The notes beneath the pieces are model-generated. The model saw only the letters and a program-made list of their open reading frames with translations, did no database searches and was not told the origin of the DNA. This document shows, piece by piece, positions 41,571 through 42,500 of a DNA stretch of 64,000 bases. Origin of the DNA: Escherichia coli O127:H6 str. E2348/69 (GTDB taxonomy: Bacteria > Pseudomonadota > Gammaproteobacteria > Enterobacterales > Enterobacteriaceae); NCBI RefSeq assembly GCF_000026545.1, contig NC_011601.1, one strand, 5' to 3'. Within the stretch, counting starts at the first letter, position 1. Every line of letters begins with the position of its first letter. The translations under genes and the position numbers were made by a program.

Positions 41571-42500
41571 TCACCCCCTAAAAACCTCTTTCCGATGCCA
41601 CTCTACAAACACCTCATAAGGGTAATTTTTACGTACCTGCGGCAAAGCAATAGTTTTCCCGTCAAAATCCCAGAATAGTTTCTCAACGATCCCTCCGCCG
41701 TTTACCGCATCTGATACCAGTACCCGCATATTTTCGTCCAGGCCAATCGATCCTTTATCAAAGGCTTTATGGTGAATTGCGCAAAGCGCCAGGCCATTAG
41801 GAATTTCACAAGGACCGCCGTGCTGTTTCCATTTTATATGCGCCGCTTCAAGCGCGACGGTGGTGTCGTCGTGGCGCATATTAAAGCCACATATCGCGCA
41901 CTGGTAGTTATAAGCGCGTAATACATTTTTGCGAAATAACGGGTCGCGCTGTTTACGGATTTGCTGGAGGTCAAAACCCAATTCGTCAGCAATTTCCTCC
42001 TGAATACTCTCGGTAAAATGCGCTTCGAGTATCTGTTGCGCCAGGGTATTGATGAGTTTTTTATTGCCGGTTACCAGGGCGTAGTGCTGTTCATCGAAAC
42101 CGCCTGCAACGCGGTGTTCGGTCAGTTCCTTCACTGGCGGTTGTCGGCTGCTCCCTGCTGTTGAGCAAAGCCCGGCATTGTGTAATTGCCAGAATCCGTC
42201 GCCTTGTAATCGCCAGAACGGCATATCAGGTCGGTACTGTGAACGCTGTGGCCCAAAACGTTCCAGTAAACTGTGCAGAGGTTCGTAGATTTCCGAGCCA
42301 TAATCGAAAAGGCGCGGATGTCCATTCAGGTATCCCGCTAATACGTATAGCAATAACAATGGCTTATGCGGCGCGCGCTGTTCACCCTTGTGCCAGATTT
42401 TTATATTGGCAATTGCCTGCTGTAGCGATTTACTGGAAGCCATTGATATCCCTGGCAGTGAAATAATTGCGATCATGCTCGCAAATTTTCTTCTGTTCAA
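41571..42500 (-). CDS. HNH-domain nuclease with an N-terminal domain of unknown function (putative restriction-type enzyme)
   Basis: 309-aa ORF; HNH-like core CAICGF...AAHIKW...CAIHHKAFD in the C-terminal half. Confidence 0.55.
   Translation of the reverse strand: MNRRKFASMIAIISLPGISMASSKSLQQAIANIKIWHKGEQRAPHKPLLLLYVLAGYLNGHPRLFDYGSEIYEPLHSLLERFGPQRSQYRPDMPFWRLQGDGFWQLHNAGLCSTAGSSRQPPVKELTEHRVAGGFDEQHYALVTGNKKLINTLAQQILEAHFTESIQEEIADELGFDLQQIRKQRDPLFRKNVLRAYNYQCAICGFNMRHDDTTVALEAAHIKWKQHGGPCEIPNGLALCAIHHKAFDKGSIGLDENMRVLVSDAVNGGGIVEKLFWDFDGKTIALPQVRKNYPYEVFVEWHRKEVFRG

What the first reader, a model, noticed from the sequence alone, without database searches (positions are those of the whole stretch)
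41571..42500. 309-aa HNH nuclease with an unknown N-terminal sensor domain
The C-terminal half carries an HNH-like metal-binding core (CAICGF...HIKW...CAIHHKAFD); the N-terminal about 180 aa is unassigned. Its location between the McrBC-like genes and a second HNH gene suggests a modification-dependent or sequence-specific restriction nuclease.
Basis: partly seen in the sequence, partly recalled or inferred. Interest (0 to 1): 0.5.

Follow-up and report, generated by a model that had tools for sequence, protein, structure and literature searches.

The report
Known phosphorothioate-DNA-dependent SBD-HNH restriction enzyme
This gene encodes an ordinary, already-annotated E. coli restriction enzyme that cuts incoming DNA carrying sulfur (phosphorothioate) in its backbone; its "unknown" N-terminal half is the well-described sulfur-binding domain.

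Summary
The ORF is real (41571..42500, minus strand), and the quoted HNH motifs are present. The 309-aa length is the longest possible ORF, starting at a TTG. The probable start is the ATG at 42443, which gives 290 aa, as RefSeq annotates (WP_000168585.1, E. coli E2348/69, 100% nt identity).

The N-terminal half is not unknown. It is a sulfur-binding domain (SBD) of the ScoMcrA/SprMcrA type.
- The whole protein scores 437 bits against NCBIfam NF045808, "phosphorothioated DNA-binding restriction endonuclease" (cut-off 180).
- An AlphaFold model (pLDDT 95.4) superposes on the ScoMcrA SBD (5ZMO, TM 0.78).
- The sulfur-pocket residues H26, K27 and P75 are conserved, as is the HNH/zinc core (C182, C185, H202, N216, C221, H224, H225).

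The protein is 76% identical to WP_000199891, an E. coli protein shown experimentally to bind Rp-phosphorothioate DNA and to restrict dnd+ DNA. It is 97.6% identical to the second E. coli W paralogue. One of those two is the characterised enzyme EcoWI (GpsAAC/GpsTTC, N7/N6).

About 31% of complete E. coli genomes carry a full-length copy at the nanS edge of the leuX island, and most others keep a remnant. The genes on its far side differ between strains, so it works alone and is not a McrBC partner.

Verdict: already known, low interest.

The parts
41571..42443 (-). Coding sequence of the phosphorothioate-dependent SBD-HNH restriction endonuclease (290 aa plus stop), identical to RefSeq WP_000168585.1
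   Evidence: 100% nt identity to E. coli E2348/69, where RefSeq annotates this start and this product name. NCBIfam NF045808 scores 437 bits against a cut-off of 180.
42444..42500 (-).
   Evidence: Homologues of 289-291 aa start at the equivalent of M20. The family model begins at residue 25 of the 309-aa form. AGGGA at 42449-42453 lies 5 nt before the ATG at 42443.
42024..42431 (-). Sulfur-binding domain (SBD), residues ~5-140. Pocket residues are H26 (42366-42368), K27 (42363-42365), M74/P75 (42219-42224) and R78 (42210-42212). The predicted major-groove loop is AGSSRQPP, residues 96-103.
   Evidence: phmmer to the ScoMcrA SBD 5ZMO gives E 7e-6 and to the SprMcrA SBD about 1e-3. Foldseek gives 5zmo_A TM 0.78, prob 1.00, and also finds 7cc9/7ccd/7ccj and 8h0l. 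K27 and P75 are invariant and H26 is present in 75 of 78 diverse homologues. Residue roles come from PMC6224610.
41949..42023 (-). Helical linker between the SBD and HNH domains (residues ~141-165). It has the same length as in the E. coli W paralogue WP_000199891.
   Evidence: AF2 model helices 128-142 and 145-155, with a pLDDT dip at 161-170. No indel against WP_000199891 in this stretch; 64% identity. The linker is proposed to set cleavage distance (PMC7461809).
41574..41948 (-). HNH nuclease domain (residues ~166-290). The zinc finger is C182-x2-C185 ... C221-x2-H224/H225. The catalytic residues are H202 (41838-41840) and N216 (41796-41798).
   Evidence: Pfam HNH_2 E 1.3e-9. phmmer and Foldseek matches to the TagI HNH domain 6GHS, VcaM4I 6YEX and EcoKMcrA 6GHC. 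C182, H202, N216 and H224 are invariant; C185, C221 and H225 are >=90% conserved.
42580..43230 (+). Context, not part of the enzyme: a divergently oriented HNH endonuclease pseudogene with a premature TAG at codon 35 (42682-42684)
   Evidence: Translation shows the internal stop. RefSeq marks it 'HNH endonuclease, internal stop'. Other strains retain only a 105-nt remnant.

Best explanation
The gene encodes a stand-alone, two-domain restriction endonuclease of the EcoWI/SprMcrA (SBD-HNH) family that depends on phosphorothioate (PT) modification of its target.

The N-terminal sulfur-binding domain docks on DNA whose backbone carries an Rp phosphorothioate written by a foreign Dnd system. The sulfur sits in a small non-polar pocket (P75 as floor, H26 and M74 as wall and lid) and is salt-bridged by K27. 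A loop (AGSSRQPP) reads the neighbouring bases in the major groove.

The C-terminal HNH domain is tethered by a helical linker and stabilised by a CxxC...CxxH zinc finger. It cuts both strands a few base pairs away, using H202 as general base and a divalent metal, probably acting as a dimer. The host's own unmodified DNA is spared, and PT-modified plasmids or phages are destroyed on entry.

Shown here: family membership, fold, and conservation of the pocket, catalytic and zinc residues.
Shown by others for close relatives: binding of Rp-PT DNA, restriction of dnd+ DNA, dimer formation, Mg2+ dependence, and GpsAAC/GpsTTC N7/N6 cleavage.
Inferred for this allele: the same activity. Its sequence context and cut distance are less certain.
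For: - NCBIfam NF045808 'phosphorothioated DNA-binding restriction endonuclease' scores 437 bits (cut-off 180) over model positions 2-284 of 284.
- RefSeq gives the identical gene the same name.
- Sequence matches to solved SBDs of ScoMcrA and SprMcrA and to the TagI HNH domain.
- The AF2 model has pLDDT 95.4 and pTM 0.90. Its best PDB matches are the SBDs 5zmo (TM 0.78), 7cc9/7ccd/7ccj and 8h0l, plus the HNH enzymes 6ghs, 6yex and 6ghc.
- Across 78 homologues at 35-75% identity, K27, P75, C182, H202, N216 and H224 are invariant. H26, F76, C185, C221 and H225 are at least 90% conserved. This reproduces the published family signature KPzzLL...PF..L..W plus CxxC/CxxH.
- It is 76% identical over its full length to WP_000199891. 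That protein's SBD binds Rp-PT DNA, and its full-length form restricts transfer of the Salmonella dnd cluster (PMC6224610).
- It is 283/290 identical to the second E. coli W paralogue, WP_000168572.
- EcoWI (33.4 kDa; GpsAAC/GpsTTC N7/N6; Mg2+; dimer; complete restriction of dnd+ plasmids) is an E. coli SBD-HNH enzyme (PMC7461809).
- The position equivalent to ScoMcrA E156 is arginine here (R67). This is the charge state that allows GpsAAC binding (PMC7470945).
- No dnd-type gene is annotated in the 29 kb around the gene. This fits the published finding that these enzymes are rarely linked to dnd clusters.
Against: - No experiment exists on this exact allele.
- The lid residue equivalent to ScoMcrA Y164 is Met and the A168 equivalent is Arg. 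The experimentally active WP_000199891 has the same two residues, however.
- The SBD is only 72% identical to WP_000199891 and carries a 1-residue insertion in the base-contact loop, so sequence-context specificity could differ.
- About two thirds of E. coli genomes keep only a remnant of this gene, so it is dispensable and often lost.
- Expression in E2348/69 is unknown, and the simple scan found no sigma-70 consensus promoter upstream.
- The rest of the E2348/69 genome was not checked for dnd or ssp genes.
Confidence: 0.9

Rival explanations
1. It is a functional third component of the adjacent McrBC-like system. In this reading the SBD-HNH protein acts as an extra sensor or nuclease recruited by the McrB GTPase, rather than as an independent enzyme.
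For: It lies 63 bp downstream of mcrC in E2348/69, NGF1 and W.
Against: The gene is convergent with mcrC, so they are not one operon. In strain XJ6.1 the same gene, at the same nanS-edge site, is flanked by a DEAD-box helicase and a methyltransferase instead. The paralogue WP_000199891 sits next to an integrase and a 5'-nucleotidase. EcoWI and WP_000199891 restrict PT-DNA when expressed alone.
Confidence: 0.03
2. The SBD-like domain of this allele reads something other than phosphorothioate (another backbone or base modification, or plain DNA sequence). The enzyme would then be a different kind of restriction nuclease built on the same scaffold.
For: The lid residue is Met, where ScoMcrA and SprMcrA have Tyr, and the A168 equivalent is Arg. 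EcoWI itself shows star activity on unmodified DNA with Mn2+ or at high enzyme concentration.
Against: The residues shown by mutagenesis to be essential (P165 and R117 equivalents, P75 and K27) are invariant. The tested E. coli homologue has the identical M-P-F-W-R pocket sequence and binds Rp-PT but not Sp-PT DNA.
Confidence: 0.04
3. The gene is intact but silent or on its way to decay in this strain, and contributes nothing to defence.
For: Most E. coli genomes carry only fragments of it (27% or 22% of its length) at the same locus. The neighbouring HNH gene is already a pseudogene. No consensus promoter was found.
Against: The reading frame is complete, and every conserved pocket, zinc and catalytic residue is present. 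1705 of 5426 genomes keep a full-length copy at 95-100% nt identity.
Confidence: 0.03

Closest known systems
E. coli 'ScoMcrA homolog' WP_000199891 (Liu et al. 2018, PMC6224610), identical to the leuX-proximal paralogue of E. coli W
   Same: It has the same SBD-linker-HNH architecture and nearly the same length (291 vs 290 aa). It is 76% identical and 87% similar over the full length. The pocket sequence (HK...DMPFWRL) and the HNH/zinc motifs are identical. It also sits in the leuX island. It has been shown to bind Rp-PT DNA and to restrict dnd transfer.
   Different: It lies at the other end of the island, next to the integrase. Identity in the SBD is 72%. The window protein has one extra residue in the base-contact loop (AGSSRQPPVK vs SGS-RQPPRR) and lacks the two C-terminal residues.
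EcoWI (Lutz et al. 2020, PMC7461809; Yang et al. 2022, PMC9521924)
   Same: It is an E. coli SBD-HNH enzyme of 33.4 kDa. It is PT-dependent, uses Mg2+ and forms a dimer. It cuts GpsAAC/GpsTTC at N7/N6 and completely restricts dnd+ plasmids in vivo. It shows the same conserved signature KPzzLL..PF..L..W plus CxxC/CxxH.
   Different: The papers give no accession. By the naming convention (my knowledge) it comes from E. coli W, which has two paralogues: 33.41 kDa (76% identical to the window protein) and 33.31 kDa (97.6% identical). The mass favours the first. Depending on which it is, the window protein is either a 76% relative or a near-identical orthologue. This allele has not itself been assayed.
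SprMcrA (SBD-HNH, Streptomyces pristinaespiralis; PDB 7CC9/7CCD/7CCJ)
   Same: It has the same two-domain plan, and the SBD fold superposes (TM 0.69-0.76).
   Different: Structural alignment gives only ~18-19% identity. Its pocket is Y31/Q32/Y78/P79/A82 and its base-reading motif is HGD. It is Mn2+-dependent, has a variable cut distance and has an H-N-R active site.
ScoMcrA (SBD-SRA-HNH Type IV enzyme; PDB 5ZMM/5ZMN/5ZMO)
   Same: The SBD is homologous in sequence and fold, with the H-R/K and P pocket residues conserved. Both have a C-terminal HNH domain.
   Different: ScoMcrA is 561 aa and has an N-terminal head domain and an SRA (5mC/5hmC-reading) domain, both absent here. It is specific for GpsGCC through an SRGRR loop and has a negatively charged loop 34 (E156/D157), where this protein has R-S.

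Membership tests
SBD-HNH phosphorothioate-dependent restriction endonucleases (EcoWI type; NCBIfam NF045808) | Full-length match to the curated family model above its cut-off | tested here: met
   437 bits against a cut-off of 180; model positions 2-284 of 284.
SBD-HNH phosphorothioate-dependent restriction endonucleases (EcoWI type; NCBIfam NF045808) | N-terminal domain with the sulfur-binding-domain fold | tested here: met
   AF2 model with pLDDT 95.4. Foldseek top hits are 5zmo_A (TM 0.78, rmsd 3.0 A over 157 columns), the SprMcrA SBDs and the Hga SBD, all prob 1.00. phmmer gives E 7e-6.
SBD-HNH phosphorothioate-dependent restriction endonucleases (EcoWI type; NCBIfam NF045808) | Sulfur-pocket residues: H-(R/K) pair and (Y)-P pair (ScoMcrA H116, R117, Y164, P165) | tested here: met
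   H26 and K27 are present and P75 is invariant. The Y164 position is M74, as in the experimentally active WP_000199891; Y164 is reported as poorly conserved.
SBD-HNH phosphorothioate-dependent restriction endonucleases (EcoWI type; NCBIfam NF045808) | C-terminal HNH (beta-beta-alpha-Me) nuclease with catalytic His/Asn/His and a CxxC...CxxH zinc finger | tested here: met
   Pfam HNH_2 E 1.3e-9. C182, C185, H202, N216, C221, H224 and H225 are conserved. The motif is described in PMC7461809.
SBD-HNH phosphorothioate-dependent restriction endonucleases (EcoWI type; NCBIfam NF045808) | PT-dependent DNA cleavage in vitro and restriction of dnd+ DNA in vivo | not testable with these tools
   Shown only for relatives: WP_000199891 (76% identical) and EcoWI.
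SBD-HNH phosphorothioate-dependent restriction endonucleases (EcoWI type; NCBIfam NF045808) | No cognate PT-writing (dnd/ssp) cluster in the same cell | tested here: inconclusive
   No dnd or ssp gene is annotated within 29 kb, and none appears among the island ORFs scanned. The rest of the E2348/69 genome was not examined.
ScoMcrA-type SBD-SRA-HNH Type IV enzymes | SRA (5mC/5hmC-binding) domain between the SBD and HNH domains, and an N-terminal head domain | tested here: not met
   The protein is 290 aa with only an SBD, a ~25-aa helical linker and an HNH domain. The match to the 560-position ScoMcrA-like PADLOC model covers positions 95-229 only.
McrBC system component | Conserved genetic linkage and co-orientation with mcrB/mcrC | tested here: not met
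   The gene is convergent with mcrC. Strain XJ6.1 has other neighbours, and so does the W leuX-edge paralogue.

The most novel reading that the evidence does not exclude
This nanS-edge allele is 72% identical to the tested E. coli homologue in the SBD and has an extra residue in the base-contact loop. It could therefore recognise a different PT sequence context (for example GpsGCC or GpsATC), or cut at a different fixed distance than EcoWI. That would add a tool for mapping PT sites. Its decay in about two thirds of E. coli genomes, against retention in one third, could also record shifting exposure to PT-modified mobile DNA.
Probability: 0.12. Interest if true: 0.3.

Novelty: already known. 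Interest (0 to 1): 0.08.

Why it matters
It matters little beyond correct annotation. The gene is a recognised Type IV/IIM restriction enzyme that blocks uptake of phosphorothioate-modified DNA. It belongs to the variable defence island at leuX in E. coli. Its relatives are already used as reagents (EcoWI-seq) to map PT modification. The only open practical question is whether this allele's sequence-context preference or cut distance differs from EcoWI's.

Tried and rejected
- The local Pfam-A scan found only HNH_2 and left the N-terminus blank. This is a gap in that library, not evidence of novelty: NCBIfam, PDB sequence search, fold search and the precomputed PF26340 all assign the region.
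- I tried to pin down which E. coli W paralogue is EcoWI from the papers and their supplements. No accession or sequence is given. Only the 33.4 kDa mass points to WP_000199891, so this remains unresolved.
- A literature search for E2348/69 together with phosphorothioate and dnd found nothing.
- tblastn of the protein against the window found no second copy.
- I rejected the idea of a three-gene McrBC+HNH system after comparing loci in other strains.
- The promoter and terminator scan gave nothing above shuffled expectation.
- The 309-aa TTG start was considered and rejected in favour of the ATG at 42443.

Full report
**Observation**

The window contains an ORF at exactly 41571..42500 on the minus strand, 309 codons from a TTG. 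CAICGF, HIKW and CAIHHKAFD fall at residues 201-206, 221-224 and 240-248 of that ORF. Pfam HNH_2 matches residues 201-255 with E 1.3e-9.

The window is E. coli. The ORF is 100% identical in DNA to strain E2348/69 (NZ_CP059840.2), where RefSeq annotates it as WP_000168585.1, "phosphorothioated DNA-binding restriction endonuclease".

RefSeq starts the gene at the ATG at 42443, giving 290 aa. I agree, for four reasons:
- An AGGGA motif lies 5 nt upstream of that ATG.
- Homologues in Citrobacter, Enterobacter, Klebsiella and Salmonella are 289-291 aa long.
- The E. coli W paralogue aligns from its own Met-1 to this Met.
- The family model begins at residue 25 of the 309-aa form.

Residue numbers below use the 290-aa form.

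**What it is**

The whole protein matches NCBIfam NF045808 (PT-DNA_restrict) with 437 bits against a curated cut-off of 180, covering model positions 2-284 of 284.

A sequence search of the PDB splits the protein into two parts:
- Residues 4-142 match the sulfur-binding domains (SBD) of ScoMcrA (5ZMO, E 7e-6) and SprMcrA (7CC9, 7CCD, 7CCJ).
- Residues 169-249 match the HNH domain of the modification-dependent enzyme TagI (6GHS).

All close homologues carry precomputed Pfam PF13391 plus PF26340. The local Pfam-A copy did not report PF26340, which is probably why the N-terminus can look unassigned.

An AlphaFold2 model built on a 78-sequence alignment is confident (mean pLDDT 95.4, pTM 0.90). 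Its best PDB matches are SBDs. 5zmo_A gives TM 0.78 normalised to the target, with rmsd 3.0 A over 157 columns. The SprMcrA and Hga SBDs follow, and then the HNH enzymes TagI, VcaM4I and EcoKMcrA.

The model shows an SBD (about residues 5-140), a helical linker (about 141-165) and an HNH domain (about 166-290). There is no SRA domain.

**Residue-level check**

In ScoMcrA the sulfur sits in a pocket made by H116, R117 (Lys in most homologues), Y164, P165 and A168. Mutating P165 or R117 abolishes binding, and Y164 and A168 are poorly conserved (PMC6224610).

The HMMER alignment maps these positions to H26, K27, M74, P75 and R78. I aligned the window protein with 77 family representatives at 35-75% identity, drawn from a library in which 499 cluster representatives match at E <= 1e-30:
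- K27 and P75 are invariant, and H26 is present in 75 of 78 sequences.
- In the nuclease half, C182, H202, N216 and H224 are invariant.
- C185, C221 and H225 are at least 90% conserved.

This reproduces the signature published for EcoWI and its active homologues: KPzzLL...PF..L..W in the SBD, HK/HR and YP for sulfur recognition, and a CxxC...CxxH zinc finger in the HNH domain (PMC7461809).

The position equivalent to ScoMcrA E156 is arginine here. The negative charge at E156 prevents ScoMcrA from binding GpsAAC, and reversing it confers that binding (PMC7470945; alignment).

**Relation to characterised enzymes**

E. coli W carries two paralogues at the two ends of its leuX island.
- WP_000199891.1 lies next to the integrase. 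It is 291 aa and 33.41 kDa, and is 76% identical and 87% similar to the window protein over the full length. This is exactly the "E. coli ScoMcrA homolog" synthesised and tested by Liu et al. 2018. Its SBD (residues 1-170) binds Rp but not Sp PT-DNA, a mutation of the conserved proline diminishes binding, and the full-length gene restricts transfer of the Salmonella dnd cluster.
- WP_000168572.1 lies at the nanS edge, next to McrBC-family genes, in the same position as the window gene. It is 290 aa and 33.31 kDa, and differs from the window protein at 7 of 290 residues.

EcoWI is described as an E. coli SBD-HNH enzyme with a predicted mass of 33.4 kDa. It is Mg2+-dependent and forms a dimer. 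It cuts GpsAAC/GpsTTC at N7/N6 and completely restricts dnd+ plasmids in vivo (PMC7461809). It is also the reagent behind EcoWI-seq (PMC9521924).

The papers give no accession. The name implies strain W (the naming convention is from my own knowledge), and the mass favours WP_000199891. The window protein is therefore either a 76% relative or a 97.6% orthologue of EcoWI.

Compared with WP_000199891, the SBD is 72% identical, the linker 64% with no indel, and the HNH domain 82%. The only internal indel is one extra residue in the loop equivalent to ScoMcrA's base-reading S187-R191 loop: AGSSRQPPVK against SGS-RQPPRR.

**Mechanism**

The best-supported mechanism is that of the family:
- The SBD binds an Rp phosphorothioate in foreign DNA. 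The sulfur sits in the P75/H26/M74 pocket and K27 forms a salt bridge.
- The loop at residues 96-103 reads the flanking bases.
- The HNH domain (H202 as general base, N216, H224/H225, and a Cys3-His zinc site) cuts both strands a short fixed distance away.

Family membership, fold and residue conservation are shown here. The activity is shown only for relatives. GpsAAC/GpsTTC specificity and the N7/N6 cut distance are inferred for this allele from its identical pocket, similar loop and equal linker length.

**Context**

The gene lies at the nanS-proximal edge of the island inserted at tRNA-Leu(CAA), leuX, at 15258-15342. This is not the classical yjiA-yjiN immigration control region, which lies beyond fim, as the gene order in E. 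coli W shows.

Of 5426 complete E. coli genomes, 1705 have a full-length copy at about 95-100% nt identity. Most of the others have a remnant covering 27% or 22% of the gene at the same site, for example a frameshifted fragment in T7 Express.

The neighbours on the island side vary:
- McrB/McrC-family genes in E2348/69, NGF1 and W.
- A DEAD-box helicase and a methyltransferase in XJ6.1.

The gene is convergent with mcrC. The "second HNH gene" (42580..43230, plus strand) has a premature TAG at codon 35 and is annotated as a pseudogene. Other strains retain only 105 nt of it.

The enzyme therefore acts on its own, and its position between those genes reflects clustering in a defence island rather than a shared mechanism. 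No dnd gene is annotated within 29 kb. Published neighbourhood analysis also finds these enzymes rarely linked to dnd clusters. The rest of the genome was not checked.

**Verdict**

The claim of an unknown sensor domain does not hold. The domain, the family and this very gene's annotation are already public, and close relatives have been characterised biochemically and structurally. This is an ordinary, already-known feature, and its interest is low. The small residual possibility is a different PT sequence context or cut distance for this allele.

Noticed in passing
window 42580-43230 (+); premature TAG at 42682-42684: The neighbouring HNH gene is a pseudogene. If read through, its N-terminus (residues 25-87) matches positions 29-92 of a 560-position ScoMcrA-like PADLOC model. 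That is the 'head' region just before the stretch (95-229) that the PT enzyme's SBD matches. Its C-terminus is a classic HNH (Pfam PF01844, E 4e-4). The two adjacent genes thus resemble different pieces of ScoMcrA.
   Followed up: partly
L002:16159-17034 and L006:7974-8846 (E. coli W, NC_017635.1): E. coli W carries two paralogous PT-dependent SBD-HNH genes, 76% identical to each other's type, one at each end of the leuX island. The literature does not say which one is EcoWI.
   Followed up: partly
window 34478-34513 (-), inside hsdS (33866-35092): HsdS contains three perfect tandem 12-bp repeats encoding [12 protein letters not shown] in its central region. From my own knowledge, the TAEL repeat number sets the spacer length of the target sequence in type IC systems (EcoR124I vs EcoR124/3I). 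This looks like a type IC R-M system with a length-variable specificity element.
   Followed up: no
window 38147-40201 (+) and 40198-41508 (+): The McrB-family protein is 684 aa. Only its AAA+ region (about residues 440-610) matches EcoKMcrB (117 bits against a cut-off of 637). The ~220-aa N-terminal region, which would be the DNA-reading part, has no family match. McrC also scores far below the equivalog cut-off. This is a divergent McrBC-like system of unknown target.
   Followed up: no
window 15258-30239: The leuX-proximal part of the island holds a serine recombinase (18315-18884), a RecQ-family/DpdF-like helicase (20150-21994), several ORFs with no family match in a 53-58% GC stretch, an AbiTii-domain gene (28038-28940) and a tyrosine integrase (29028-30239). 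Together they suggest at least two mobile or defence modules in tandem.
   Followed up: no
window 43238-44218 (-): The nanS (sialate O-acetylesterase) reading frame is an uninterrupted 326-aa ORF in the window. RefSeq annotates only a 345-nt partial pseudogene in the identical E2348/69 sequence. The reason for the discrepancy is unexplained.
   Followed up: no
L003:4011-4216 (E. coli T7 Express, NZ_CP053594.1): B-strain derivatives keep only a frameshifted ~250-nt remnant of this gene between yjhR and nanS. This includes the T7 Express host used in the literature to express EcoWI. About 3,100 complete E. coli genomes show such remnants.
   Followed up: partly
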